Shown piece after piece: positions 1-60,429 of a DNA stretch of 64,000 bases. Every line of letters begins with the position of its first letter. The stretch's first letter is position 1. The notes below the pieces were generated by a model. That model was given only the letters and a program-made list of their open reading frames with translations. It was not told the DNA's origin and ran no database searches. The translations under genes were made by a program, and so were the position numbers. Origin of the DNA: a phage; NCBI GenBank assembly GCA_022897995.1, contig GCA_022897995.1_4763.1. One strand, written 5' to 3'.

Positions 1-959
1 AAAAAAACGTGTATGGTGAGGACCATGCTCAACCTGATTCGACTGGTGTTTACACTTGTCGCGTTTCGGTTGGTTTTGGTGATCATCGTGCGTCTCAAAT
101 GTCACATCCAGCAAGGGTATTAATTAGCGACAATGTTGAGATTGTGCCTAATGACTTACAGGTCACCGCACATCCTCATGATAATGACGTTAAGTATAAT
201 CAGCGTGTTATTTTAACAGCAAGATCTCAAAATAGCATTGGATTAAAACCACACATTCAATGGAAAAAAGATGGTGTGGCTATCCACGGTGCAAATTCAG
301 AGACTTTAGTAATTGAGCACGCAAAACCGTCAGATGCGGGAACTTATACGGCAGAGATCACCGCAGCAGAAAAAACGGTAACAACCAATCCAGCGGTCGT
401 TACTGTAGCAGAGCATAGCAATATCAATATCTTAAAACATCCGGTGGATGTGGTTGCAAAAGAAGGTCAAACCAATGATATTGTATTAGAAGCTCATGCA
501 GAACATGCAGACGGTGAAACCGAAGTTAATTATCAGTGGCATAAAATTAAAGATGGTGTAGACACTGAAATAAGAGATGCAACAAATAAAACTTTAGTTA
601 TCCCTCATGCACAGATCAGCAAGCAAGCTCATCAAGCGACCTATTACGCCGAGATAAAAGAAGAGAATGGACACGTTAAACATAGCGAAAAAGTTCGAGT
701 GGCGTTTACTACCGCGAAATTAAAACGCTATGTACACCCGATCCCGTGGCGTCGAACTTCCTTCCAATATCAGGGTTATTGGGTAATGGATGAAATTGAT
801 CGTTGTAACCGCGAAGGTCTTAACTGGCTTGAGGATTTTACCCACACCAAATACCCAGACGAGATCGAGACTATTGCAGCCTCGTTGCATCACTATTCTA
901 ATACTCATGTATTGGAATCTCGTAATGGTTATCTGGTTGACGGTACTCAACTATTTTAA
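1..959 (+). CDS. hoc: Hoc-like outer capsid decoration protein with Ig-like repeats (5' partial; frame open to window edge, first full codon at 3)
   Basis: No stop upstream in window; Ig-like repeats (DAGTYTAEIT); C-terminal RYVHPIPWRRTSF..WVMDEI..ESRNGY resembles the capsid-binding tail of T4 Hoc. Confidence 0.6.
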   Translation, partial: KNVYGEDHAQPDSTGVYTCRVSVGFGDHRASQMSHPARVLISDNVEIVPNDLQVTAHPHDNDVKYNQRVILTARSQNSIGLKPHIQWKKDGVAIHGANSETLVIEHAKPSDAGTYTAEITAAEKTVTTNPAVVTVAEHSNINILKHPVDVVAKEGQTNDIVLEAHAEHADGETEVNYQWHKIKDGVDTEIRDATNKTLVIPHAQISKQAHQATYYAEIKEENGHVKHSEKVRVAFTTAKLKRYVHPIPWRRTSFQYQGYWVMDEIDRCNREGLNWLEDFTHTKYPDEIETIAASLHHYSNTHVLESRNGYLVDGTQLF

Positions 960-969
960 TTAATTAAAT

Positions 970-993
970 GCCGATCTTCGGATCGGCTTTTCT
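970..993 (+). terminator. intrinsic terminator
   Basis: GCCGATC-TTCG-GATCGGC hairpin followed by TTTTCT. Confidence 0.65.
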
Positions 994-2235
994 ATGGAGT
1001 GGCTTTATATGGCTTTCACAGTATCAATTAAATCTAACAAAAGATGTTTTCTTGCTGGAGATGGTTTCACCTTAACAGCGACTGTAGCAGGTGACGAACC
1101 ATTACCCAGCAATTTGACCTATACATGGACAAAAGACAACAAACCACACGAAAATAACACCGCTACGCTAACCGTAGCAGGTGCAACAAGTGAAAATGCG
1201 GGCAACTATAAAGTCACTGTACAAGATACCGATAGCGGGGAATCGGTAGAATCTGACGTTTTCCGTATGGAAGAAGCTGAATTAATCGTTAAGATCACCG
1301 AACCGCCGCAATTCTACGTACCAACACAAACAGACGTAGAATTACATGCAACAGTAAAATTTTCTGGTGGGAAGACTCCAGCAGACAACTATGAATTGCA
1401 CTATAGCTGGAGCAAGGGCGAAGAAGTTATAGACACAACACAGGATATCACGATCCAAGAATTTACAGCCGATAATAACGGCGTGTATACTGTCAAAGTA
1501 TGGGGCGAATCGGAAGATTCAGCCGATAGCGCATCCACTAAAATTATGCTGGCTACAATGAGCGTAGATCAGGATGTGGTAGAGTCAAAGACCGTAGCAC
1601 TAGGTAAGGAGATCTTACTTAATTATGTTGTGTCAGAGGACATTGTAGGCGATTCTAGCGGTATGCCTAAATTGACTATCAAACATAATTGGTATTTGCA
1701 ACGTGAAGGACAGCCGTCACCGACTCTGATCGGTAGTGAGGTCGGCGAAGCACTGGAAGGATTTTCTATCATGCCAGACGGTCATCTGTTCAAAGAGCGT
1801 GCGACTTACGATGATACAGCCAAATTCTGGTGTGTTGCTAAACTATATCAACAGATCGAAGGCGCAACAGTAGAACTTGCAGCACGTACAAGCAGAAAAT
1901 GTTCAATGGAAGTTGTTGAGTCTCTTCATAAAATGTTTCGTTACGTGCACCCGATCCCGTGGCGCAAAACTTCATTCATCTATATTGGATGGTGGGTATT
2001 TGACGAGATTGTTAAATTCAATGAGGCTGGCTTAGAGTGGCGTCACCGAGAAGTTTATTCAACCAGCAAGTACGCCAAAGATCTGGAGACAATCGCGGCA
2101 GCGGAAGAAAAATATAGTGATTGCACTTGCATGGAATCTCGCAATGGTTTCATGTATCAGTCCAAAGAGTTCCATAAACTGGACCGAGAGACGTTAGAGC
2201 GAGTTCTACACATTCGTGAAACGCCTCCTGCTTAA
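994..2235 (+). CDS. hoc: Hoc-like outer capsid decoration protein, second tandem paralog (alternative start ATG 1009 after GGAG)
   Basis: 413 aa; Ig-like repeats (NAGNYKVTV, NNGVYTVKV); C-terminal RYVHPIPWRKTSF..WVFDEI..ESRNGF shared with the preceding ORF. Confidence 0.6.
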   Translation: MEWLYMAFTVSIKSNKRCFLAGDGFTLTATVAGDEPLPSNLTYTWTKDNKPHENNTATLTVAGATSENAGNYKVTVQDTDSGESVESDVFRMEEAELIVKITEPPQFYVPTQTDVELHATVKFSGGKTPADNYELHYSWSKGEEVIDTTQDITIQEFTADNNGVYTVKVWGESEDSADSASTKIMLATMSVDQDVVESKTVALGKEILLNYVVSEDIVGDSSGMPKLTIKHNWYLQREGQPSPTLIGSEVGEALEGFSIMPDGHLFKERATYDDTAKFWCVAKLYQQIEGATVELAARTSRKCSMEVVESLHKMFRYVHPIPWRKTSFIYIGWWVFDEIVKFNEAGLEWRHREVYSTSKYAKDLETIAAAEEKYSDCTCMESRNGFMYQSKEFHKLDRETLERVLHIRETPPA

Positions 2236-2246
2236 TGAAATCTATC

Positions 2247-2278
2247 AGCCATCCTTCGGGGTGGCTTTTTTGTTTTTA
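2247..2278 (+). terminator. intrinsic terminator
   Basis: AGCCATCC-TTCG-GGGTGGCT hairpin plus T-run. Confidence 0.7.
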
Positions 2279-2282
2279 GTGC

Positions 2283-2310
2283 TTGACAGTGTGATTTAGT
2301 GGCTTATAAT
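2283..2310 (+). promoter_or_regulatory. sigma70-type early promoter
   Basis: TTGACA 2283-2288, 16-bp spacer, TATAAT 2305-2310. Confidence 0.55.
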
Positions 2311-2430
2311 GGCACACATCAACAGGGCGTTACCTTATGAGGAAAATATTATGAATATGGGGTTGAAAATGGCTTTAATAACTGTTACTGTCCTATTCGT
2401 TGTTGTGTTTATGAATGTATGAGGTGAAGT

Positions 2431-2628
2431 ATGAATGAGATTGTACGATTGATCAAAGAAGCACCAATCGAGATGTATTTTCTGGCTTTGGTTGCAACAA
2501 TGGTCTATCAGCTAGTCGCATGTCATGTGTGGAAGTCAGAAAATGCGTTTATCCGGTTTTTTGGTACTGTCATGATCCAGTTTCCGGTACTGATCACTAT
2601 CCTGTTAATCGTCAATGGGGCGAAGTGA
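2431..2628 (+). CDS. small hydrophobic protein (hypothetical)
   Basis: ORF-track ORF, 65 aa, mostly hydrophobic; GAGGTG RBS near 2421-2426; I could not reconcile the first codons with my reading of the sequence. Confidence 0.3.
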   Translation: MNEIVRLIKEAPIEMYFLALVATMVYQLVACHVWKSENAFIRFFGTVMIQFPVLITILLIVNGAK

Positions 2629-2903
2629 TGGACAAGAAAACAGCGTTAATGGTTTACATGCTACGTGAAGACCACGGTCTTAATTTTGTTGATATTGCTA
2701 AAAAGATTGGCGGGATCAGCGGACAAGATGCGGCTAAGGCATGGTTGATGGTAAAAGATGCACGCGAGGCTTACGCCAACCGTGAAAAGGTTGTTTATCG
2801 TAAACACCACATCAACAAAAAATTTAAAAATAAAGTTCAAAAACGTGTTGACAAGCCAAATAACACTGTTATAATGGACGCATTCAAACGGGCAATGTCC
2901 TAA
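2628..2903 (+). CDS. hypothetical basic protein (91 aa)
   Basis: ATG at 2628 overlapping upstream stop (TGATG); ORF track extends to 2520; lysine-rich C-terminus. Confidence 0.4.
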   Translation: MDKKTALMVYMLREDHGLNFVDIAKKIGGISGQDAAKAWLMVKDAREAYANREKVVYRKHHINKKFKNKVQKRVDKPNNTVIMDAFKRAMS

Positions 2904-2949
2904 TTTGTAATTAATATTCTGAATAACTAATCAATAGAGGTGACTAATT

Positions 2950-3387
2950 ATGAAATTCCGTAAAAACCACGTAGCAATGAAAAAAGCAATGTTCGAAGCA
3001 TTCAAAGCAGTTGATCAGGGCGGTGTTACTCTGATTGAGCAAATTAATGTTGATGTTTGGCAATCTCCGGCGATCACTTGCTCACGTCTGGCGACGGCTG
3101 GTCTTCTGAACGTTCACAGCTCTACAGCATACGACGAAGCATTGCAAGTTATTAAGGCTTTCGCTGGAGACGTTACCAGCAAGTGGGTCTATGAGAATAA
3201 AGGTGAAATTGCGGTTGCTCACGTAGGCAACAATATCCAGATGGAAATCAAGATTAAGGAAGGGTCTAAACGCAATCAGATGCTTGTTCGCTTCCAGCCA
3301 TACAAAACTAACGTAGTGCCGGATGATCTGATCATCTCTAAGAGTAATGTTACCATTCGCCGAAATCAGATCGTTATCAACAAATAA
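2950..3387 (+). CDS. hypothetical protein (145 aa)
   Basis: AGAGGTG RBS 8 nt upstream of ATG 2950; terminator follows. Confidence 0.55.
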   Translation: MKFRKNHVAMKKAMFEAFKAVDQGGVTLIEQINVDVWQSPAITCSRLATAGLLNVHSSTAYDEALQVIKAFAGDVTSKWVYENKGEIAVAHVGNNIQMEIKIKEGSKRNQMLVRFQPYKTNVVPDDLIISKSNVTIRRNQIVINK

Positions 3388-3395
3388 TTAACATT

Positions 3396-3422
3396 AGCCG
3401 TCCTTCGGGGCGGCTTTTTTGT
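3396..3422 (+). terminator. intrinsic terminator
   Basis: AGCCGTCC-TTCG-GGGCGGCT hairpin plus T6. Confidence 0.7.
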
Positions 3423-3473
3423 ATCTATTATTGACATAATTTTAGTTTACATGTGCACAATATTAATACTGTT

Positions 3474-3514
3474 TGATTAAATTATGATCAAAACGAAGAA
3501 AGATCTTTAGAACA
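3474..3514 (+). repeat. intergenic repeat copy A (TGATTAAATTATGATCAAAACGAAGAAAGATCTTTAGAA)
   Basis: Near-identical to 3622-3660; AAAACGAAGAAAGATCTTTAGAA also at 43137-43159. Confidence 0.6.
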
Positions 3515-3621
3515 TAGAAAATGTATCTTTGATTAATTATTAATCAATACATATTGTAACACAAATGTTATACTCCGTAGGAGTTCGCGAAGCGATATCC
3601 TTTTGTGTAGTTTTACATGTA

Positions 3622-3683
3622 TGATTAAATTATGATCAAAACGAAGACTTATCTTATAGAATAATAAAAATTTGTTTCGAACA
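3622..3683 (+). repeat. intergenic repeat copy B (extends through TAATAAAAATTTGTTTCG)
   Basis: Shares TGATTAAATTATGATCAAAACGAAG with 3474-3497 and GAATAATAAAAATTTGTTTCG with 43158-43178. Confidence 0.6.
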
Positions 3684-3799
3684 TTTATTAATCAATTACT
3701 GGAAGTGTTTTATTGCTCGCTGTGCTCGCTTCCGCTACGCGGATACTTGTGTTTGTTATTAACTTGTAGTATGATATTGCTTTCTATGGAGGAAATATT

Positions 3800-4387
3800 A
3801 TGTTTGACCAGTTACAAGATCTATTTGGAGTAAAACCACTTCGTAGATGTGCTTTAATCGGCTCTAGAAAAGCGCCTAGCGACATTTTGATAATGGCTAG
3901 TACCATTGGGAGGGTATTGTCAGAAAATCGCGTTGTAGCGCATTCTGGAGGGGCTTACGGTATGGACAATGCTTTCATGAAGTATTACGATCCAGATTAT
4001 AGAAAAATTTTCATTCCAAATTGGAAGTTTTATGACCATAAGCATAACGGTCATGATGTGATTGCATGGCAAACCTTAGAACAAAAGAATCTGGCGATGG
4101 ATGAATTAGAACACGTTTATGATAATCCTCGTTCTATACCGTTATACATGCAAAATTTATTTTCTAGAAATGTTGCTCAAGTCTTAGGTGAGACACTTGA
4201 TGACCCTGTAGATTGTGTGATATTCTGGGCGCAAGAAGTTAATGGTATTGTTTCTGGAGGAACTAGAATTGCTGTCTATGTTGCTCGTAGACATGGGATA
4301 CCATGTTTTAACTTATATCATCAAGAAAATAGATCCGCCGTCGAAAAAATCTTGGGCGGATCTGATTTGTCCTGGTTAGATATTTAG
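3800..4387 (+). CDS. DprA/Smf-like Rossmann-fold (SLOG superfamily) protein
   Basis: GGAGG RBS then ATG 3800; motifs ALIGSRKAP and RVVAHSGGAYGMD match the DprA/Smf-LOG pattern; assignment from motifs only. Confidence 0.45.
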   Translation: MFDQLQDLFGVKPLRRCALIGSRKAPSDILIMASTIGRVLSENRVVAHSGGAYGMDNAFMKYYDPDYRKIFIPNWKFYDHKHNGHDVIAWQTLEQKNLAMDELEHVYDNPRSIPLYMQNLFSRNVAQVLGETLDDPVDCVIFWAQEVNGIVSGGTRIAVYVARRHGIPCFNLYHQENRSAVEKILGGSDLSWLDI

Positions 4388-5629
4388 TTAAGCGTTGTCA
4401 ATCTCAAGCGGTGGCAGTTCGATTCCTAAAATGTAGGACATTTCTGAACGTCCAGCCATTTTACCCCAATCGTCACCCTTAATGACCTGGTGTTCTTCCT
4501 GATCAACTTTTGATGTATATGGGTTGACAGAGAGTGAATAACGATTCATAATAGCTACATGATGCTGGAAACTATTAGGGTCAATTACGCTCTTATACGC
4601 GCCAGCGCCATCGGCTTCTGTGTATGGGGAGTAGAACAGAGAACCTACACTCTCCATATCACCGATCATGTGCTTACAACCAACGAGCATATAATCGAAA
4701 GGTGTTGTCGTGTCTGCGTACACTTCCAGACCGCAACGTAGACGACCTTCGCTTAGAGCGTTGTCGGTTTCTTCCATCCATCCGGTGGATTGCAGGAGGC
4801 CAACCACGCGAGAAGACGCCAAAACGTATGTACCAGCAAAGGAGGAAGTACGCAACATTTGATTGCTCATTTCGCACGCGTAGCGGTAAAGTTCGCGAGC
4901 TTGTTTTGGTGCATCCTGAACGCTAACGAGAGAAAGTACGCCATCAGGGGTGATCCCTTTAATTTTATAGCGAGATGATACAGTGATCAACTTCTGAATA
5001 ATATCTTTGTTGATCTCTTCGGAAGCGACAGTAGCCAGAAGATCAATTACAGAGTTTTCCGAGTTGATTTGGCTTGCTTCAAGATCCTGCATTAATTCAG
5101 TGGTGAACGAGGTTTTCAGTTTACGAGAACCTACATTAACTTGCCACTTGTCAAACTGCATAGAGGTAGACGCAATTTCGGTGTTTTTATCTTCAAAGTA
5201 TTCTACCGATGCACAATCGCTATAGAAACGAATTTTGTTTGTCATTACGCCTTTAAAGATCGCAGCTTCTGGAGTTGCTGCATCTTCACCGACTGTACCA
5301 GCGGTCACAACTTCATATACAACATCGCCAGATTTGAACAATGCGCCTTCATCATAAGATTTTTCTTTTGAAAACTCTTCAATCTCTGTGCGATCACCAG
5401 CCGCGCCACCGTATGTTGCAGCAGTTCGGAAAGTCATCTGACCATCACGATTAAGATAACGTAGGCCGTACAATGCAGATACTGGTTGATCCGTTGGCTG
5501 AATTGCTACCAGATCAGAGAAAATCAGGTTGTTTACCGCGCGAGTTAATGATAATAGTTGCGGTCGCGCTGTCTGGTTAGCTACTGAGGAAGTAGATTCC
5601 CGCAACAGTTCAGTAAAAATATGAGTCAT
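4388..5629 (-). CDS. 24: capsid vertex protein gp24
   Basis: gp23 paralog by similarity, T4 position after gene 23; ATG at 5629 (MTHIFTELL..) chosen over the upstream ORF-track start; late promoter upstream. Confidence 0.85.
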   Translation of the reverse strand: MTHIFTELLRESTSSVANQTARPQLLSLTRAVNNLIFSDLVAIQPTDQPVSALYGLRYLNRDGQMTFRTAATYGGAAGDRTEIEEFSKEKSYDEGALFKSGDVVYEVVTAGTVGEDAATPEAAIFKGVMTNKIRFYSDCASVEYFEDKNTEIASTSMQFDKWQVNVGSRKLKTSFTTELMQDLEASQINSENSVIDLLATVASEEINKDIIQKLITVSSRYKIKGITPDGVLSLVSVQDAPKQARELYRYACEMSNQMLRTSSFAGTYVLASSRVVGLLQSTGWMEETDNALSEGRLRCGLEVYADTTTPFDYMLVGCKHMIGDMESVGSLFYSPYTEADGAGAYKSVIDPNSFQHHVAIMNRYSLSVNPYTSKVDQEEHQVIKGDDWGKMAGRSEMSYILGIELPPLEIDNA

Positions 5630-52735: not shown

Positions 52736-53434
52736 ATGCATACAATGGTTAAAATGGTCTTCGGATCTCACTTATACGGCCTTGATACTGAAAATTCCGA
52801 TAAAGATTATCGAGGTATCTTTGTTCCGACTGCGAAAGAAATTATTTTAGGATCGATGAAAGAACACTATGACCAAAGCACTAGCGGTCAAGGTATCAAG
52901 AACACCAAAGACGATATTGATGTTAATATGTTCAGTCTAAAAAGGTTTATCAATCTGGCATGTAAAGGTGATATTGGCGCTATTGACATGGTGCACGCGC
53001 CTAGTAACATGTTGATTGAATCCTCCAGAGAATGGGAATACATCCGAACACATCGCGATAAATTCTATCATGTTGGTATGTGGGGTTGTTCTGGCTATCT
53101 CAAAAAGCAGGTAGCCAAATCTGAAAAGTATTTCAGTAACTGGAAAGATCTTTCTCATGCTCTGCGTGTTGGTTATCAGCTACTTGAAATCTATCAGACA
53201 GGTGATCTACAATTCCCGCTCGCGCGACGTTCTTCTATTTTAGCGTGTAAGTTAGGAGAAAGAACCTTTGATAATGTGCGGGAAGAATTGAAAGATCTCT
53301 ACGAGCGTGTTAAACTCGCGCGTGAAGAGGCAAAGAAAAACGGTATGCCGGAAGAACCAGATGTTGACTTTTGGAAAGATTTATTAGAATATATTCATCT
53401 GACCGTTGTTCTGGAACACTATACCCGTGGTTAG
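52736..53434 (+). CDS. predicted nucleotidyltransferase (Pol-beta superfamily)
   Basis: 232 aa; N-terminal NTase signature FGSHLYGLDTENSDKDYRG; GAGGG RBS. Confidence 0.55.
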   Translation: MHTMVKMVFGSHLYGLDTENSDKDYRGIFVPTAKEIILGSMKEHYDQSTSGQGIKNTKDDIDVNMFSLKRFINLACKGDIGAIDMVHAPSNMLIESSREWEYIRTHRDKFYHVGMWGCSGYLKKQVAKSEKYFSNWKDLSHALRVGYQLLEIYQTGDLQFPLARRSSILACKLGERTFDNVREELKDLYERVKLAREEAKKNGMPEEPDVDFWKDLLEYIHLTVVLEHYTRG

Positions 53435-53455: not shown

Positions 53456-53650
53456 ATGCAAGTTTATACCAATAGCAATAAAGGCAATGATATCACACCG
53501 GGAAAGATGTATGATTTTACCCCGGCACGAGACGACGAACATCCACCGACTATCGGGTATATTGAAGATGATGCGGGGTTTCGTATTACGATCCTTCTTG
53601 ATGGTGGATGTTCTCATCTTCGCGGTGATCGTTGGGAGTTAGTACCATGA
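53456..53650 (+). CDS. small protein, CSHL-motif paralog 1 (64 aa)
   Basis: AGGAG RBS; motif GYIEDDAGFRITILLDGGCSHLRGDRWELV shared with the next two ORFs. Confidence 0.5.
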   Translation: MQVYTNSNKGNDITPGKMYDFTPARDDEHPPTIGYIEDDAGFRITILLDGGCSHLRGDRWELVP

Positions 53651-53892
53651 TGTATGTGATGACACCTTATAGTAACCGCAAGTATATTACACCAAATGCA
53701 CTGTATGAATATACACCACATGAAAGATTTGCGAATAGTGGTTATATCCGTGATGATAAGGGACACCAGATTTTTATTTGTCTTAAAAATTGTGCACACT
53801 TAGACGGTCGAACATGGACACTGGTCGAAGAACCAAAACAACCTGAGAATAAAGGTCTTTGGAATGTGCTAAAAAAATTCTTGAAAAAGTAG
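53647..53892 (+). CDS. small protein, CSHL-motif paralog 2 (81 aa)
   Basis: ATG 53647 overlapping upstream stop (ATGA); motif GYIRDDKGHQIFICLKNCAHLDGRTWTLV. Confidence 0.5.
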   Translation: MMYVMTPYSNRKYITPNALYEYTPHERFANSGYIRDDKGHQIFICLKNCAHLDGRTWTLVEEPKQPENKGLWNVLKKFLKK

Positions 53893-53921
53893 TTGACAGC
53901 ATGAAACGGGGGTAGTAATAT
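53893..53921 (+). promoter_or_regulatory. sigma70-type early promoter with spacer hairpin (PeSL-like)
   Basis: TTGACA 53893-53898, TAATAT 53916-53921; inverted repeat GGGGGTAGTAATATACCCCC. Confidence 0.6.
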
Positions 53922-53949
53922 ACCCCCATCGAAACAAAGGAGTATTAAA

Positions 53950-54288
53950 ATGAGTGTTAAAGAAGTATTTGTTTATACTGACTATGACAGGTGCGCCTAT
54001 CTCACTGCTGGAAAACTTTACCGTTGTGAGATTATTCATGGTACGCTAGGTCGAATTATGTGCGATCCGATTACAAAATTGTGGAAAAACAATCCTAGTG
54101 AGCGAGAAACTATTATTAACCTAGATTCAGACGGTTGTTCACATTTGGACTATAGAAAATGGCATATCGTGACACATGATGCTTATGGTATTCATCTTGC
54201 TACTAAAGAATTGACTATTGACAAGTTCAAGTTTAAAGAAATCCCGTTTGTATACTGGCTTCGCAATTTGTTTAAGAAAGGAGAATAA
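53950..54288 (+). CDS. CSHL-motif paralog 3 with N-terminal extension (112 aa)
   Basis: AAGGAG RBS; motif ..IINLDSDGCSHLDYRKWHIV. Confidence 0.5.
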   Translation: MSVKEVFVYTDYDRCAYLTAGKLYRCEIIHGTLGRIMCDPITKLWKNNPSERETIINLDSDGCSHLDYRKWHIVTHDAYGIHLATKELTIDKFKFKEIPFVYWLRNLFKKGE

Positions 54289-54289
54289 A

Positions 54290-54712
54290 ATGGAAACAAT
54301 TAATGTACACGTTCGCCGTAGCAAGCTGCGCAGATTCTTCGAAGCTGAAATGCGTAAGACTAACGCACAAATCAAAGAAAAGTGCTTGAATAATGGTTAC
54401 GGTGAGTATATTTTCATTCGCTTTAGTCCGCATATGATCGACCGTCTAACCGACCGCCATATCGATGAACATAAGACAATGGAACTATTCAATAAGGTAG
54501 AAACTCGTTTGCCGGAGATATTCGACTTCCTGAAAATGGAAGACCGACCTAATCGATTAGAAATTACTGACGGTAACATGTGGATCGGGATGACAGTAGA
54601 TCTAATCGAAGACGGTAAACCGTATCACGGTCTATGCTGCCGAATGATTATAGAGAATCCAAAACGACTGGCGGGTAAAATGTCGGCTGTTGTTTTGAAA
54701 GTGGACCAATAA
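54290..54712 (+). CDS. hypothetical protein (140 aa)
   Basis: AGGAGAA RBS then ATG 54290 (ORF track starts 54218). Confidence 0.5.
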   Translation: METINVHVRRSKLRRFFEAEMRKTNAQIKEKCLNNGYGEYIFIRFSPHMIDRLTDRHIDEHKTMELFNKVETRLPEIFDFLKMEDRPNRLEITDGNMWIGMTVDLIEDGKPYHGLCCRMIIENPKRLAGKMSAVVLKVDQ

Positions 54713-54734
54713 TGGAGATTGGTTAAAATAATGC

Positions 54735-54763
54735 TTGACTTTCTGGTGATAGGGCTATATTAT
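54735..54763 (+). promoter_or_regulatory. sigma70-type promoter (possible MotA-box TGCTT at 54732-54736)
   Basis: TTGACT 54735-54740, 17-bp spacer, TATTAT 54758-54763. Confidence 0.5.
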
Positions 54764-54797
54764 GGAATCAGAAAGTTAAGCCAAACAGGAGAAATTA

Positions 54798-55388
54798 ATG
54801 TTAAAAGTTCTAAAAGCGATAGTATTGAGTCTGTCACTAGCCGTTGGTGCTACACACGCATCGACTAGCGCACCGATCAAAAAAGCGCCGATAGACAACT
54901 TTACAGCACACCAACTAGATAATTTACATTTCGCCTATCAATACGGCGAGCAATTCGAGAAAAGCGGTAAGTTGAAAAAGGACCATCCGAATATTCGCTA
55001 TAACGGAAAGGGTTTAGGTCACATCCTGGCGGGTATCGCATGGCAAGAATCAAGCGCGGGTGCAAACTTAGCACCAAAGAAAAATCATCATGCTTATGGA
55101 TTATTTCAAAATTACCTTAAAACGGTGAAAGCGAAAAATGCAAAGCGCGGTGTTAAAATGAGTGATCGCCAGACTATCAACTTTATCATGAATCGCGAGG
55201 TTTCTGCATTCTACGCGATGGATGAGTTAGCATACTGGCTGGATGTTCGAAACGGTAATATCCGACTCGCGCTGGCTTCTTACAATGCTGGATGGAACTA
55301 TAAAGCCGGTTTAGGTTATGCTGATGACGTATTAAAAAAAGCTAACCATCTAAAGAGTAAAGGCATTCTTAAAACTAAACGCTATTGA
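54798..55388 (+). CDS. secreted lytic transglycosylase-like (SLT/lysozyme-like) protein
   Basis: 196 aa; N-terminal signal peptide MLKVLKAIVLSLSLAVGATHA; catalytic-region motif GIAWQESS and ..SYNAGW..; AGGAG RBS. Confidence 0.55.
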   Translation: MLKVLKAIVLSLSLAVGATHASTSAPIKKAPIDNFTAHQLDNLHFAYQYGEQFEKSGKLKKDHPNIRYNGKGLGHILAGIAWQESSAGANLAPKKNHHAYGLFQNYLKTVKAKNAKRGVKMSDRQTINFIMNREVSAFYAMDELAYWLDVRNGNIRLALASYNAGWNYKAGLGYADDVLKKANHLKSKGILKTKRY

Positions 55389-55395
55389 GGAATAT

Positions 55396-55755
55396 ATGAA
55401 AAAGTTGACAATAATTGCTATGATTGCTATGATGTTCTCTGCTGGTGCGCTTGCTAGTAATGAGCGCCCTTATCCAAAGTTCGAATACAAAGGATTTGAG
55501 ATCAACAAAAAGATCATTAAAACCTTCTGTGATGATGATAACATGTGTAGCGATTTTATCGCACTTGAACTCGACGAAGCCTATAAACAAGGCCGAGATG
55601 AAAAACGAAAAAATCGAGCATGGGATCTGAGTATTGCCAGCTTTGCTAAAACAAAACGCAACCTGTGTGATACTGCCCCTGATAAGCAATTATGCTTTGC
55701 TTATCGCGACACACTGTTAAGCCGTTTTATGGCTGGGTTGTCTTCCCGTGACTAA
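55396..55755 (+). CDS. secreted hypothetical protein with signal peptide (119 aa)
   Basis: GAGGAA RBS; signal peptide MKKLTIIAMIAMMFSAGALA; four Cys. Confidence 0.5.
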   Translation: MKKLTIIAMIAMMFSAGALASNERPYPKFEYKGFEINKKIIKTFCDDDNMCSDFIALELDEAYKQGRDEKRKNRAWDLSIASFAKTKRNLCDTAPDKQLCFAYRDTLLSRFMAGLSSRD

Positions 55756-55770
55756 TGAGAGGTTTATATT

Positions 55771-56226
55771 ATGATTATTGATACTGTAAAGGGCGATCTC
55801 ATCGCCCTGTTTAAACAAGGAAACGGTCATTTAATTCATGGTTGTAATTGTTTTCATACTATGGGCGCTGGTATTGCTGCGAAGATCGCGAAAGAGTTCC
55901 CGCAAGCATTGGCTACTGACAAAAAGACACCGAGAGGAACGGCTAGTAAGCTAGGCGAGTTCAATGTTTGGCATCATACCGTTAATGGTTATAACTGGAT
56001 GGGTATTAATCTTTATACGCAATTCCGCCCAGGACCAAATGCTGAATATTCCGCTATCATCCGTGGATTCGAACAACTTAACTTCGCATTTGAAGGTACT
56101 GTTAAGCCGTTCTATATTCCTAAAATTGGTTGTGGGATTGGTGGCCTAGAATGGGAATGCGTAGAAGAAATCATTAATGATTTTACGCCGGATATCAATA
56201 TTGTGGTGGTGGAATATGACAAATAA
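55771..56226 (+). CDS. macro domain protein (ADP-ribose binding/processing)
   Basis: 151 aa; macro-like motifs LIHGCNCFHTMGAGIAAKI and IPKIGCGIGGLEWE; GAGAGG RBS. Confidence 0.55.
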   Translation: MIIDTVKGDLIALFKQGNGHLIHGCNCFHTMGAGIAAKIAKEFPQALATDKKTPRGTASKLGEFNVWHHTVNGYNWMGINLYTQFRPGPNAEYSAIIRGFEQLNFAFEGTVKPFYIPKIGCGIGGLEWECVEEIINDFTPDINIVVVEYDK

Positions 56227-56410
56227 AAATGATCTCTATTCCGGTGATTGGGTGAAACGTCAATCTGTAGAAAACGTAACTTGTTTTCGTTGTTTCACTG
56301 AATACAATATAAAAACCGCTCCTGTTAGTGTTCCAAAGACAGACGGGTATTATATTAAAGAACCGCATTGCCCTAAATGTAAATGTCGATTATATTGGAG
56401 TCATCTATGA
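56216..56410 (+). CDS. zinc-ribbon protein (64 aa)
   Basis: ATG 56216; CxxC..CPKC pairs (CFRCF.., CPKCKC). Confidence 0.45.
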   Translation: MTNKNDLYSGDWVKRQSVENVTCFRCFTEYNIKTAPVSVPKTDGYYIKEPHCPKCKCRLYWSHL

Positions 56411-58284: not shown

Positions 58285-60429
58285 ATGCCAGAAGTAAAAG
58301 AAACTAGCATTAACACAACCATTTGGCTTCCTCATACTTTCGCGTGTTCAATTACTGCCGAATCGGAAGACCCATCTAAGACGAGGAAGGGTTATCATTG
58401 GAAAAAGGATGGTAAATTGGTCACTATGACCGATGCTCCGTCTTTTCCATTGAAGACAGTAAAGGAAGAGGACAAAACAGGCTGGTCTGTTAATGTTCGT
58501 GGGTATGCTCAAGATGACAATGAGTTTACTGGTGATTCTGTTGATATCGGTACGGAAAATTTCACCTTTGAATTGTTTGATAATCCATATGTAGAACATG
58601 TATACCCGCCACGGTCATTTATTGTTGGTGATGAAATAAAGGCAAAGATTGTTTTTCGTAGTCATATCCAGAATAATATTTCTGTAGACCTTTATTACAA
58701 CGATGGTTTGGTTGATTCCATTGATGGTGATCTAGGTTTAGACCATCGTGAATTTAAAATTGCAAAATTTGCGTGGCCTGAATTTTCCGGCACATATCGA
58801 ATGGAATTGAGCGATGAACATGATGATGTAAAATTTGTATATCCTTTCTTTGCTAGTATTGTCGAAAGTAAGGAAGTGTTTAACGTTCAAAAATACGCAC
58901 CTGCTTATTTTACCGTAGAAGATGATGCGCCGAATCAGGCCGAATATACTATTGTCCGCTACCGATTAGAGCGTGGTGATGGTACTTTGGTATATGAATC
59001 TAAAGATAAGACCTTGTATGTAACAAAACATGCTCAAGAGTCTGACGCCGGAGAATATGTTGCTTTTGTGCGTGCATATAAAGTTGTTAATGGTCCTGGG
59101 TCTGGTGAGCAATTCATCGATGGCGATAAACATCGCTTTACGGTAAATGTTAAGGAAAATGAGTTTTTCAGCCATGATTTTAGTGCTGTTGATTTTCGTT
59201 ATCCTTCTGGATCTACTGTAAACCTTGATATGCCAGTGATGCAAGCCGATAGCTCGTGGAACCGCCATTACGGTATGCTTAGTAACAACGTTTACTTTAC
59301 GTGGATGCTTGGCGGTAAGAAACTTCAAAGTAAAAAATATGGTGATGAAGGATACGACCGAATCACCCTATCTGGATTGCAATATGATAACAGCGTTGCG
59401 CTTCAATTGTTGGTTGCTCCTGCCAATCCAGCGGGTGAGCAGGTGATTCCTAACGGTCGTCCACTGTTTTATGACCGTCGTATGCTTGAGATTTATGATA
59501 AAGAGTATGATTATCGTAATATTGAAGTGGGTGAACCGATTGTTCTCAAGATCGTAGATCCTGAACCGCCAGCTAGTGATGATCCTGAACAAACACGAAC
59601 TTTGGTTATCACCAAAAACGACGTTAAAGTAACGGAACTACCGCTAGGCACTAAGGAATATAAGATCACTGACTCCGCTGACCGAGACCATAACGGAATC
59701 TGGGCGCATGAGTATCGTGATAGTCCGAGTAAAGATCCATTTAGTGCACATACCGATTTTGATATTGCTGGTCGCGCAACTTATCATGTTGAAGTTGTGC
59801 CAAATATGGAATTTGATGGTCCTCATCCGGTACAGGTGACGGAAGGGGATACGTTGACTATTGAAGCAACCATGCTTAAACCGCCAGCCTCATATGTTCC
59901 GACTTATGAGTTTAGCAAGAGTGGAGTTAAATTGCCAATTGCTGATGCAAGGACGCCGATTTATCGTAAGGCAAATGTTACCTTAGATGATGCTGGTGTT
60001 TATCGATTTGTTGCATTTGCTGATAAAAACAACAACGAAACTCTAGACCCAGGTGAGATCATCGGCTATACAAAATATGTTCAAGTTGTGGTTAATAAAC
60101 GTCCTGTTCGACCAGATGAACCTAAACCGGAAGTTAAAATTGTTACTCTGTTTAATGATTTTAGTAAAGGCCGATTTAGTCCGTGTCCGTATTGGGTAAT
60201 TGATGAACTTGTCGAACTGATGGAAGATCCGCATGGCTGGATGGGTAAACTTGAAGATGCTGTCTACTATGACTGGCAGATCACTATCTTTAATGAGTTC
60301 TTAAAAGGTAAAGATCTGTATCTTCAAGACTCCTGTAATGGTTATTGGGCTATTGTTCGTCAGAAAGACATGACAATCGAAACTGGTTACGGTCGATTTA
60401 AACACTATCACACAAATGGATTAGAGTAA
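58285..60429 (+). CDS. large Ig-like domain protein with Hoc-like C-terminus (candidate virion surface/decoration protein)
   Basis: 714 aa; AAGGGGG RBS; Ig-like signature DDAGVYRFVAF; C-terminal ..CPYWVIDEL..DSCNGYW.. weakly resembles the Hoc capsid-binding domain. Confidence 0.55.
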   Translation: MPEVKETSINTTIWLPHTFACSITAESEDPSKTRKGYHWKKDGKLVTMTDAPSFPLKTVKEEDKTGWSVNVRGYAQDDNEFTGDSVDIGTENFTFELFDNPYVEHVYPPRSFIVGDEIKAKIVFRSHIQNNISVDLYYNDGLVDSIDGDLGLDHREFKIAKFAWPEFSGTYRMELSDEHDDVKFVYPFFASIVESKEVFNVQKYAPAYFTVEDDAPNQAEYTIVRYRLERGDGTLVYESKDKTLYVTKHAQESDAGEYVAFVRAYKVVNGPGSGEQFIDGDKHRFTVNVKENEFFSHDFSAVDFRYPSGSTVNLDMPVMQADSSWNRHYGMLSNNVYFTWMLGGKKLQSKKYGDEGYDRITLSGLQYDNSVALQLLVAPANPAGEQVIPNGRPLFYDRRMLEIYDKEYDYRNIEVGEPIVLKIVDPEPPASDDPEQTRTLVITKNDVKVTELPLGTKEYKITDSADRDHNGIWAHEYRDSPSKDPFSAHTDFDIAGRATYHVEVVPNMEFDGPHPVQVTEGDTLTIEATMLKPPASYVPTYEFSKSGVKLPIADARTPIYRKANVTLDDAGVYRFVAFADKNNNETLDPGEIIGYTKYVQVVVNKRPVRPDEPKPEVKIVTLFNDFSKGRFSPCPYWVIDELVELMEDPHGWMGKLEDAVYYDWQITIFNEFLKGKDLYLQDSCNGYWAIVRQKDMTIETGYGRFKHYHTNGLE

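What the first reader, a model, noticed from the sequence alone, without database searches (positions are those of the whole stretch)
54735..55755. Secreted SLT-like protein plus secreted partner protein
Two adjacent genes encode signal-peptide proteins: a 196-aa protein with SLT/lysozyme-like motifs (GIAWQESS.., ..SYNAGW) and a 119-aa Cys-containing protein. Periplasmic phage proteins in T4 include Spackle, which blocks the gp5 lysozyme of superinfecting phage. A periplasmic transglycosylase with a possible inhibitor or partner could act in superinfection exclusion, lysis timing or wall remodelling.
Basis: inference. Interest (0 to 1): 0.45.

Follow-up and report, generated by a model that had tools for sequence, protein, structure and literature searches.

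The report
Phage T4 vs.1–vs gene pair
These two genes are the well-catalogued T4-family genes vs.1 (an exported cell-wall-cutting enzyme) and vs (named a "valyl-tRNA synthetase modifier"); the only surprise is that Vs looks in every relative like an exported, disulfide-bonded protein that always sits just after vs.1, which fits poorly with its textbook job inside the cell.

Summary
ORFs 54798-55388 (196 aa) and 55396-55755 (119 aa) are real, selected genes with signal-peptide-like N-termini. The window is a Krischvirus (RB49/JSE-like T4-type phage), and the pair are the orthologues of T4 vs.1 and vs, in the conserved order regB–vs.1–vs–tk.4…tk–rI.

Vs.1 is an SLT-type lytic transglycosylase. 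It scores above the Pfam SLT threshold, Glu84 is invariant in 97 homologues, and its AF2 model matches MltD, Slt and MltE. Its closest solved relative by sequence is EtgA.

Vs belongs to a small phage-only family (29 clusters among 1.84 billion representatives). It is a four-helix protein. Every full-length member inspected has a signal peptide and nearly all keep four cysteines (invariant in the 21-sequence alignment). It has no informative structural neighbour, Spackle and the lysozyme inhibitors included.

In all 50 vs-containing loci checked, Vs lies directly after a Vs.1-type gene (gap −8 to +7 nt); Vs.1 often occurs without Vs. A T4 transposon screen shows fitness defects for both genes but not their neighbours, and vs is the top minimal-medium hit.

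Best reading: an early-expressed periplasmic lytic transglycosylase with an exported accessory protein. Nothing supports a role in superinfection exclusion. The genes are already known. What remains unexplained is how an exported Vs can be the classical cytoplasmic ValRS modifier.

The parts
54735..54763 (+). sigma-70-like promoter candidate (TTGACT-17 nt-TATTAT) in the 85-nt regB–vs.1 spacer
   Evidence: 10 of 12 matches. Weak: the region has 23 such sites against 15 expected. T2 has only a 7-nt regB–vs.1 gap, so this site is not conserved.
54787..54791 (+). Shine-Dalgarno AGGAG, 6 nt upstream of the vs.1 ATG
   Evidence: Read directly from the sequence.
54798..55388 (+). vs.1 orthologue: exported SLT-family lytic transglycosylase, 196 aa (mature about 175 aa, 19.7 kDa, pI 9.9)
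   Evidence: ORF. Pfam SLT above threshold. phrog_600, E 6e-60. Protein identical to JSE vs.1. AF2 pLDDT 87.4, with top Foldseek hits MltD, Slt, Slt70 and MltE. Profile match to EtgA, E 5.5e-5.
54798..54860 (+). Vs.1 signal peptide (aa 1 to about 18-21; cleavage after GA or THA)
   Evidence: n-h-c layout read from the sequence. Heuristic positive in 83/97 homologues. AF2 pLDDT about 50 over aa 1-30.
55032..55055 (+). GIAWQESS: catalytic-Glu motif (Glu84 at 55047-55049, followed by Ser85)
   Evidence: E84 invariant and S85 at least 90% conserved in 97 sequences. Aligns with AIAWNES of EtgA.
55278..55295 (+). SYNAGW: SLT motif III (S161, Y162, N163, G165)
   Evidence: G165 invariant; S161, Y162 and N163 at least 90% conserved.
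55386..55395 (+). vs.1 stop codon TGA overlapping the vs Shine-Dalgarno GAGG (7-nt intergenic gap): translational-coupling junction
   Evidence: Sequence TATTGAGGAATATATG. The gap is −8 to +7 nt in all 41 loci that carry both genes.
55396..55755 (+). vs orthologue: exported four-helix, four-Cys protein, 119 aa (mature about 99 aa, 11.6 kDa)
   Evidence: ORF. phrog_1256, E 1.8e-33. PF26829 'ValRS_modifier' on the 97%-identical P0001. AF2 helices at 33-45, 49-72, 76-86 and 97-115, with pLDDT 85-94 over aa 50-119.
55396..55455 (+). Vs signal peptide (aa 1 to about 18-20; A-L-A|S)
   Evidence: Heuristic positive in 21/21 family members. The 19 more distant members also have one. AF2 pLDDT below 50 over aa 1-28.
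55528..55695 (+). Span holding the four invariant Cys codons: C45 (55528-30), C51 (55546-48), C91 (55666-68), C100 (55693-95)
   Evidence: Invariant in 21 sequences that are as little as 15% identical. Retained in the distant members.

Best explanation
The pair are the Krischvirus orthologues of T4 vs.1 and vs, and they form a two-gene, translationally coupled, early-expressed module whose products both act outside the cytoplasm.

Vs.1 is exported by the Sec pathway. It is a small family-1 (SLT/GH23-type) lytic transglycosylase that cuts peptidoglycan glycan strands using Glu84. In architecture it resembles the small 'specialised' lytic transglycosylases such as EtgA.

Vs is exported too. It folds into a four-helix domain probably stapled by two disulfides. 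It most likely serves as an accessory (partner or regulator) of Vs.1 in the periplasm, rather than, or in addition to, binding cytoplasmic valyl-tRNA synthetase.

The module improves phage fitness, most strongly in minimal medium.

My estimates for each step:
- Identity as vs.1 and vs: about 0.98 (shown).
- Vs.1 has the SLT fold with an intact active site: about 0.9 (shown in silico).
- Both proteins are exported: about 0.85 (inferred from sequence).
- Vs works with or through Vs.1: about 0.3 (inferred from gene linkage and a shared phenotype only).
For: Identity and synteny:
- 94% nucleotide identity to JSE/RB49-type phages.
- The order regB–vs.1–vs–tk.4…tk–rI is the same in JSE and T2.
- PHROG hits at E 6e-60 and 1.8e-33.

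Enzyme (Vs.1):
- Pfam SLT above threshold.
- E84 invariant; S85, S161, Y162 and N163 near-invariant in 97 homologues.
- AF2 pLDDT 87, pTM 0.80.
- All top Foldseek PDB hits are lytic transglycosylases, probability 0.9-1.0.
- Best solved relative by sequence profile is EtgA.

Export:
- Signal-peptide layout in 21/21 Vs and 83/97 Vs.1 homologues, against 6/90 ORFs in the window.
- The same layout in distant Vs members down to E 5e-4.
- Four invariant Cys in Vs.

Linkage:
- Of 80 viral loci found through Vs.1, 38 carry Vs. In every case it is the next gene on the same strand, with a gap of −8 to +7 nt.
- All 12 loci found through Vs have a Vs.1-type gene abutting upstream. Nine were HMM-confirmed; three have a 171-184 aa gene there.
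- Vs.1 occurs alone in Kuttervirus, Felixounavirus, Ceceduovirus and Aeromonas T4-like phages.

Expression: in T4 both genes are classed early RNA / middle protein, and both proteins were detected (PMC9697503 supplement).

Phenotype (T4 HIDEN-SEQ, bioRxiv 10.1101/2025.11.20.689424, Data S8):
- vs: mean 26.6 to 5.0, log2FC −2.19, adjusted p 0.
- vs.1: mean 22.6 to 11.9, log2FC −0.87, p 0.0055, adjusted p 0.155.
- In the LB control both genes have 5- to 30-fold fewer reads than every neighbouring gene (tk.4 290, regB 179, vs.3 652).
- A clean vs deletion plaques poorly on M9-glucose.

N-His full-length T4 Vs goes to inclusion bodies in the cytoplasm (PMC8076793).
Against: - No direct evidence of a Vs–Vs.1 interaction. 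A complex prediction could not be run.
- A mirror-tree test gave no co-evolution beyond shared phylogeny: partial r 0.05 after controlling for regB and tk.4.
- Classical T4 genetics and biochemistry (my recollection of Neidhardt, Marchin and co-workers, 1966-1980; cited second-hand in PMC8076793) link the vs locus to a roughly 10-kDa factor bound to host ValRS, including effects in temperature-sensitive valS hosts. That requires cytoplasmic Vs.
- Export is predicted from sequence with a home-made heuristic, not SignalP, and has not been measured.
- The vs.1 transposon phenotype could be a polar effect on vs. It is not significant after multiple-test correction.
- Foldseek E-values for Vs.1 are modest (about 1e-2, TM about 0.45).
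Confidence: 0.5

Rival explanations
1. The annotation is right and sufficient. Vs is the cytoplasmic tau factor that binds and alters host valyl-tRNA synthetase. Its position next to vs.1 is inherited synteny without functional meaning, and Vs.1 is an unrelated accessory muralytic enzyme.
For: - The family name (phrog_1256; PF26829 'ValRS_modifier').
- Literature summaries.
- A minimal-medium defect is what one might expect of a translation or amino-acid-linked function.
- The vs phenotype is stronger than the vs.1 phenotype (−2.19 against −0.87).
- No co-evolution signal.
- Mature T2/T4-type Vs is 11.0 kDa, close to the roughly 10 kDa I recall for tau. This fits either reading.
Against: - Every full-length family member inspected, including those 15-30% identical, keeps an N-terminal signal peptide with positive charges first; nearly all keep four Cys, which are invariant in the 21-sequence alignment. 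A cytoplasmic ValRS ligand has no reason to conserve these.
- Vs was never seen away from a Vs.1-type gene in 50 loci.
- I could not reach any paper tying the tau peptide to this ORF at the sequence level.
Confidence: 0.3
2. Lysis-timing pair. Vs.1 is a Sec-exported auxiliary endolysin, and Vs is its periplasmic inhibitor (antidote), holding it in check until lysis.
For: - An exported muralytic enzyme made early needs restraint.
- Loss of vs is worse than loss of vs.1 in M9.
- vs.1 homologues sit near lysis genes in other lineages: rIIA/rIIB and a spanin in Felixounavirus, Rz/Rz1-like ORFs in L061, and rI a few genes downstream here.
- UniRef names some homologues 'Lysin'.
- Nolan et al. suggested 'some role in cell lysis'.
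Against: - Insertions in vs.1 are themselves depleted, whether polar or not. Under a pure antidote model, loss of Vs.1, or of both genes, should be neutral.
- Roughly half of the vs.1-bearing loci sampled have no Vs, so the enzyme is tolerated without it.
- Vs resembles no known lysozyme or lytic-transglycosylase inhibitor.
Confidence: 0.13
3. One reading: a Spackle-like superinfection-exclusion function, with periplasmic Vs blocking the tail lysozyme of incoming phage, with or without Vs.1.
For: Vs is small, helical, exported and made early, as Spackle is.
Against: - No sequence or fold similarity to Spackle or to anything else solved.
- T4 already encodes sp, yet vs still has its own fitness phenotype in single-phage competition, in a screen where sp is neutral (sp log2FC +0.20).
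- Exclusion would not explain a minimal-medium plaque defect.
Confidence: 0.05

Closest known systems
Bacteriophage T4 genes vs.1 and vs (UniProt P13311 and P13310)
   Same: Orthologues by sequence: phrog_600 at E 6e-60 and phrog_1256 at E 1.8e-33. About 52% identity between Vs.1 and T2 Vs.1. Same order regB–vs.1–vs–tk.4 and same tight junction. T2 Vs.1 and Vs also carry signal peptides, and Vs the four Cys.
   Different: Vs is only about 28% identical to T2 Vs and has a 13-residue insertion after the signal peptide. This phage has an 85-nt regB–vs.1 spacer with a promoter-like site, where T2 has 7 nt.
EtgA and other small 'specialised' lytic transglycosylases of secretion systems (IagB, IpgF, VirB1 group)
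   Same: Best solved relative by profile: 8urn EtgA, E 5.5e-5, with the AIAW-x-ES and YNAGY motifs aligned. Small Sec-exported single-domain SLT enzyme. From my own knowledge, EtgA activity is stimulated by a small partner protein, the EscI rod.
   Different: Not encoded beside any trans-envelope machine. The candidate partner Vs is unrelated to EscI. No stimulation has been shown.
Housekeeping family-1 lytic transglycosylases (Slt70, MltD, MltE, Slt of P. aeruginosa)
   Same: Fold and catalytic motifs.
   Different: Vs.1 lacks their superhelical, LysM or lipoprotein modules. It has its own N-terminal helix carrying an invariant Gln39. Similarity is distant: about 20% identity, TM about 0.45.
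T4 Spackle (Sp), periplasmic inhibitor of the gp5 tail lysozyme
   Same: Small, exported, helical, early phage protein.
   Different: No detectable sequence or structural relationship. Different phenotype in the T4 screen.

Membership tests
SLT / family-1 lytic transglycosylase (Pfam PF01464, GH23) | Profile match above the curated threshold | tested here: met
   26.1 bits against a cut-off of 21.3, E 6.6e-6, aa 76-167. PF01464 is precomputed on many homologues.
SLT / family-1 lytic transglycosylase (Pfam PF01464, GH23) | Catalytic Glu followed by Ser (E-S) on the active-site helix | tested here: met
   E84 invariant and S85 at least 90% conserved in 97 sequences. Lies in helix 74-85 of the model. 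Aligns with the E-S of EtgA.
SLT / family-1 lytic transglycosylase (Pfam PF01464, GH23) | Motifs II (G-x-x-Q) and III (A/S-Y-N-x-G) | tested here: met
   G101-L-F-Q104 and S161-Y-N-A-G165. G101, F103, Q104 and N105 are invariant in 6 diverse sequences. S161, Y162 and N163 are near-invariant and G165 invariant in 97 sequences.
SLT / family-1 lytic transglycosylase (Pfam PF01464, GH23) | Lysozyme-like alpha-helical fold | tested here: met
   AF2 pLDDT 87.4. Top 20 Foldseek PDB hits are almost all lytic transglycosylases (probability 0.9-1.0), though E is only about 1e-2 and TM about 0.45.
SLT / family-1 lytic transglycosylase (Pfam PF01464, GH23) | Non-hydrolytic cleavage yielding 1,6-anhydroMurNAc | not testable with these tools
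   Needs enzyme assay and muropeptide HPLC/MS.
T4 Vs family (phrog_1256; Pfam PF26829 'ValRS_modifier') | Sequence membership | tested here: met
   phrog_1256 at E 1.8e-33 over the full length. PF26829 on P0001, 97% identical. BFVD matches only Vs orthologues.
T4 Vs family (phrog_1256; Pfam PF26829 'ValRS_modifier') | Binds and modifies host valyl-tRNA synthetase | not testable with these tools
   Known only from the older T4 literature as summarised. I could not reach a source linking this ORF to the tau peptide.
T4 Vs family (phrog_1256; Pfam PF26829 'ValRS_modifier') | Cytoplasmic location (needed to meet ValRS in vivo) | tested here: not met
   In silico only. Signal peptide with N-terminal positive charges in 21/21 members plus 19 distant members. 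Four Cys invariant in the 21-sequence alignment and kept by nearly all distant members. Not measured experimentally.
Specialised lytic transglycosylases of trans-envelope machines (EtgA, IagB, VirB1) | Small Sec-exported single SLT domain | tested here: met
   196 aa, signal peptide, one SLT domain, closest PDB sequence relative EtgA.
Specialised lytic transglycosylases of trans-envelope machines (EtgA, IagB, VirB1) | Encoded within the gene cluster of a secretion, pilus or flagellar machine | tested here: not met
   The neighbours are regB, vs, the tk.4 macrodomain, tk and rI.
Periplasmic lysozyme or lytic-transglycosylase inhibitors (T4 Spackle; Ivy, MliC/PliC, PliG, PliI) | Sequence or fold similarity to a known inhibitor | tested here: not met

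The most novel reading that the evidence does not exclude
The protein that has been called the T4 'valyl-tRNA synthetase modifier' for 50 years is in fact a Sec-exported, disulfide-bonded periplasmic protein. Its real job is tied to the Vs.1 lytic transglycosylase, that is, to cell-wall remodelling during infection, which matters most in slow-growing minimal-medium hosts. The classical ValRS association would then be either a post-lysis artefact of extract preparation, a moonlighting activity of unexported precursor, or a mis-assignment of the genetic vs locus to this ORF.
Probability: 0.3. Interest if true: 0.65.

Novelty: already known. Interest (0 to 1): 0.35.

Why it matters
As catalogued genes the pair is ordinary. 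vs.1 homologues occur in about 2,000 sequenced phages, and both proteins are identical to those of phage JSE.

It matters for one reason. The biological role of vs is a long-standing open question, and a 2025 transposon screen made vs the strongest T4 gene required in minimal medium. Three features of Vs hold across the family: a conserved signal peptide, four conserved cysteines, and a position directly after an exported lytic transglycosylase. Together they offer a concrete and cheaply testable alternative to the tRNA-synthetase explanation.

If that alternative is correct, it would also give a function to vs.1, one of the most widespread uncharacterised genes of T4-like, Felix-O1-like and Vi1-like phages.

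Tried and rejected
1. Complex prediction. No interaction model could be made.
2. Mirror-tree co-evolution on 29 loci. Raw r for Vs.1–Vs is 0.86, but the partial r controlling for regB and tk.4 is 0.05. There is no specific signal.
4. Aeromonas T4-like phages lack Vs but have a 140-146 aa lipoprotein-like ORF in front of tk.4. I tested whether it is a divergent Vs. It is not: hhalign probability is 17% and only the signal peptides align.
5. NCBIfam gave no hit for either protein.
6. Literature. The T4 genome review and the original J. Virol. paper are not held. The signal-peptide table in Nolan et al. 2006 covers only unnamed ORFs. I therefore could not check the ORF-level evidence that this gene encodes the tau factor.
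7. Bacterial homologues of Vs.1. One in Vibrio chagasii lies next to an integrase and an nrdD-like gene. Another, on two metagenome contigs (an identical cluster member is also in NCBI), sits among housekeeping genes (LolA, citrate synthase, ParAB, ATP synthase). Neither lies in a secretion-system cluster or next to a Vs-like gene.
8. Pure antidote model (Vs only neutralises Vs.1). Disfavoured, because vs.1 insertions are themselves depleted.
Full report
WHAT IS THERE

The region holds two same-strand ORFs: 54798-55388 (196 aa) and 55396-55755 (119 aa). Each has a good Shine-Dalgarno. The one for the second gene (GAGG) overlaps the TGA stop of the first, leaving a 7-nt gap.

This is a weak call, because such sites are only 1.5 times more frequent than in shuffled sequence.

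Both genes are under strong purifying selection. Against phage JSE there are 6 and 9 nucleotide differences, 14 of the 15 at third codon positions, and no amino-acid change.

IDENTITY

The window is a Krischvirus, an RB49/JSE/phi1-type T4-like phage. The stretch 54200-56300 is 94% identical to 58 such genomes.

PHROG profiles identify the two proteins as phrog_600 (E 6e-60) and phrog_1256, 'valyl tRNA synthetase modifier' (E 1.8e-33). The flanking genes are regB (Pfam REGB_T4, E 6e-48), a macrodomain protein (tk.4), thymidine kinase and the RI antiholin.

GenBank annotation of JSE and T2 names the pair vs.1 and vs, in the same order regB–vs.1–vs–tk.4…tk–rI. So these are orthologues of two named T4 genes.

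The SLT similarity of vs.1 was already reported by Nolan et al. 2006. They describe it as corroborating earlier PSI-BLAST matches of T4 vs.1 to lysozyme domains, and they suggested 'some role in cell lysis' (PMC1524935).

VS.1

- Pfam SLT is above its gathering threshold: 26.1 against 21.3 bits.
- In an alignment of 97 homologues down to 22% identity, Gln39, Glu84 and Gly165 are invariant. Ser85, Gly101, Ser161, Tyr162 and Asn163 are at least 90% conserved. These are the E-S, G-x-x-Q and S/A-Y-N-x-G motifs of family-1 lytic transglycosylases.
- AlphaFold2 gives a confident all-helical model: pLDDT 87.4, pTM 0.80.
- Its best Foldseek PDB matches are MltD, Slt, Slt70, MltE, LtgA and Cj0843, with probability 0.9-1.0. 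The E-values are only about 1e-2 and TM about 0.45, so the relationship is distant.
- A family profile searched against PDB sequences finds a single hit, EtgA, the small specialised lytic transglycosylase of the EPEC type III secretion system. E is 5.5e-5 and the catalytic motif is aligned.
- The N-terminus has a classic signal-peptide layout. My heuristic detects one in 83 of 97 homologues, and most failures look like mis-called starts.
- The family is broad. A tblastn search finds it in 2,034 phage records. These cover T4-like phages of many hosts, Kuttervirus (Vi1-like), Felixounavirus and Ceceduovirus. There are also some chromosomal copies in bacteria.

VS

Vs is a much smaller and faster-evolving family. 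Mean pairwise distance is 0.52, against 0.31 for Vs.1.

An exhaustive HMM search of 1.84 billion cluster representatives finds only 29 clusters, nearly all 77-134 aa; one weak outlier is 649 aa. In 21 aligned members that are as little as 15% identical, the invariant positions are Cys45, Cys51, Gly66, Cys91, Lys97, Cys100, Gly114 and Leu115.

All 21 members have an N-terminal signal peptide with leading Lys/Arg, and so do 19 more distant members read by eye. Nearly all keep the four cysteines, and one has a lipobox instead of a signal-peptidase I site.

AlphaFold2 predicts a disordered residues 1-28 followed by four helices at 33-45, 49-72, 76-86 and 97-115, with pLDDT 85-94 over residues 50-119.

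The fold has no informative neighbour:
- No PDB sequence hit.
- BFVD returns only Vs orthologues.

A conserved export signal plus an even number of invariant cysteines is the signature of a periplasmic, DsbA-oxidised protein. It is not what one expects of a cytoplasmic ligand of a tRNA synthetase. Consistent with that, though weak, full-length N-His T4 Vs expressed in the cytoplasm went to inclusion bodies (PMC8076793).

LINKAGE

I fetched 80 viral contigs through Vs.1 and scanned their ORFs with HMMs for both families.
- 38 carry Vs. In every case it is the next gene downstream on the same strand, with a gap of −8 to +7 nt.
- The three GenBank loci (JSE, T2, Acinetobacter phage 133) behave the same way.
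- In the other direction, 9 loci fetched through Vs proteins all have an HMM-confirmed Vs.1 abutting upstream.
- 3 more metagenomic Vs loci have a 171-184 aa gene abutting upstream, with a gap of 0, −1 or −4 nt.
- The remaining 42 Vs.1 loci have no recognisable Vs. In Kuttervirus the next gene is a DUF7270 protein without a signal peptide. In Felixounavirus it is polynucleotide kinase, with rIIA/rIIB upstream. In one 183-kb phage it is an Rz/Rz1-like pair. In Aeromonas T4-like phages an unrelated lipoprotein-like ORF sits where vs would be.

So Vs behaves as an optional, lineage-restricted accessory of Vs.1, and it was never seen on its own.

EXPERIMENTAL CONTEXT FROM THE LITERATURE

In T4, vs and vs.1 share the same expression class (early RNA, middle protein), and both proteins are detected (PMC9697503 supplement).

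The HIDEN-SEQ transposon screen of T4 (bioRxiv 10.1101/2025.11.20.689424) reports vs as the most depleted gene in M9-glucose relative to LB. It confirms the result with a clean deletion and states that the role of the ValRS modification is unknown.

Its Data S8 table shows:
- vs: 26.6 to 5.0, log2FC −2.19, adjusted p 0.
- vs.1: 22.6 to 11.9, log2FC −0.87, p 0.0055, adjusted p 0.155.

Already in the LB control these two genes have 5- to 30-fold lower insertion read means than all their neighbours: tk.4 290, regB 179, vs.3 652, tk.3 767. The two genes therefore share a fitness signature that their neighbours lack.

Two caveats apply. Insertions in vs.1 may be polar on vs, and this is a single preprint.

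Whichever way polarity goes, depletion of vs.1 insertions argues against Vs being only an antidote to Vs.1. Loss of the enzyme, or of both genes, should then be neutral.

MOST LIKELY MECHANISM

The following points are shown in silico. Vs.1 is exported and is a family-1 lytic transglycosylase with an intact active site. Vs is exported and is a compact helical, probably doubly disulfide-bonded domain. The two genes are co-transcribed, their junction is built for translational coupling, and they are made early.

The following points are inferred. The two act together in the periplasm. Vs.1 locally cleaves glycan strands and Vs modulates it, as activator, targeting factor or brake. This would resemble the way small specialised lytic transglycosylases such as EtgA are controlled by a small partner (that last point is from my own knowledge). 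The benefit would be largest in minimal-medium hosts.

I put the partner step at about 0.3. The only direct test available was a mirror-tree analysis, and it gave no signal (partial r 0.05). A complex prediction could not be run.

RIVALS

(a) The classical view: Vs is the cytoplasmic tau factor for ValRS, and its adjacency to vs.1 is mere synteny. This is backed by the older genetics and biochemistry, which I know only second-hand here, and by the plausibility of a translation-linked defect in minimal medium. It leaves the universal signal peptide, the four conserved cysteines and the strict linkage unexplained. Mature T2 Vs would be 11.0 kDa, close to the roughly 10 kDa I recall for tau. That is at least compatible with tau being the processed, exported species.

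(b) A lysis-timing enzyme/inhibitor pair. This is disfavoured by the vs.1 phenotype and by the many phages that carry vs.1 alone.

It has no structural or phenotypic support, and sp itself is neutral in the same screen.

VERDICT

The entity is already known and named. As found in this window it is an ordinary, highly conserved pair of T4-family accessory genes.

The one non-trivial point is the conflict between the Vs family's export features and its textbook cytoplasmic function. That conflict is cheaply testable and bears on a newly reported strong phenotype.

Noticed in passing
window 55771-56226 (+): The gene immediately after vs is the tk.4 orthologue, a macrodomain protein (Pfam Macro, E 3.4e-6; phrog_335). 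The HIDEN-SEQ preprint renames T4 tk.4 as adfM, an anti-DarTG2 factor.
   Followed up: partly
window 53456-54288 (+): Three consecutive small ORFs of 64, 86 and 112 aa end in a similar motif (C-S/A-H-L-x-x-R-x-W-x-L/I-V) and look like tandem paralogues. The third matches phrog_6261, of unknown function. They lie just upstream of regB.
   Followed up: no
window 58285-60429 (+): A 714-aa ORF with only a sub-threshold Ig_3 hit (E 0.008) follows rI.-1. In JSE the corresponding place holds several small ORFs instead, so this looks like a strain-variable large protein.
   Followed up: partly
window 52736-53434 (+): An nrdC.11-like nucleotidyltransferase (Pfam RlaP, 'RNA repair pathway DNA polymerase beta family', E 4.7e-14; phrog_388) sits a few genes upstream of the RegB endoribonuclease.
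   Followed up: no
L037 3871-4311, L039 4118-4558, L040 4384-4806, L067 4088-4528: Aeromonas T4-like phages keep vs.1 but lack vs. A conserved 140-146 aa ORF with a lipoprotein-type signal (…YGC) occupies the slot before tk.4. It is not homologous to Vs (hhalign probability 17%) and has no Pfam hit.
   Followed up: yes
L004 3112-3750; L046, L062, L072, L076 equivalents: In Kuttervirus (Vi1-like) phages the vs.1 homologue overlaps by 1-4 nt a conserved 200-212 aa DUF7270 protein without a signal peptide (Pfam E 3e-118). This is a different tightly coupled downstream partner gene.
   Followed up: partly
L061 3528-4183; L005 (REP12) 1-4597: In a 183-kb phage the vs.1-like gene is followed directly by Rz/Rz1-like ORFs (an N-terminal transmembrane coiled-coil protein, then a lipoprotein) and by pnk. 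In Felixounavirus it lies between rIIB and pnk, with a spanin about 1.2 kb downstream. This is a recurrent loose association with lysis genes.
   Followed up: partly
L087 (Vibrio chagasii CALSIQ010000044.1, 102735-115259): A chromosomal Vs.1-family gene annotated 'conserved exported hypothetical protein' lies near a phage integrase, a Gly_radical fragment, NDK, SHMT and an NrdD gene. This may be a phage-derived island.
   Followed up: no
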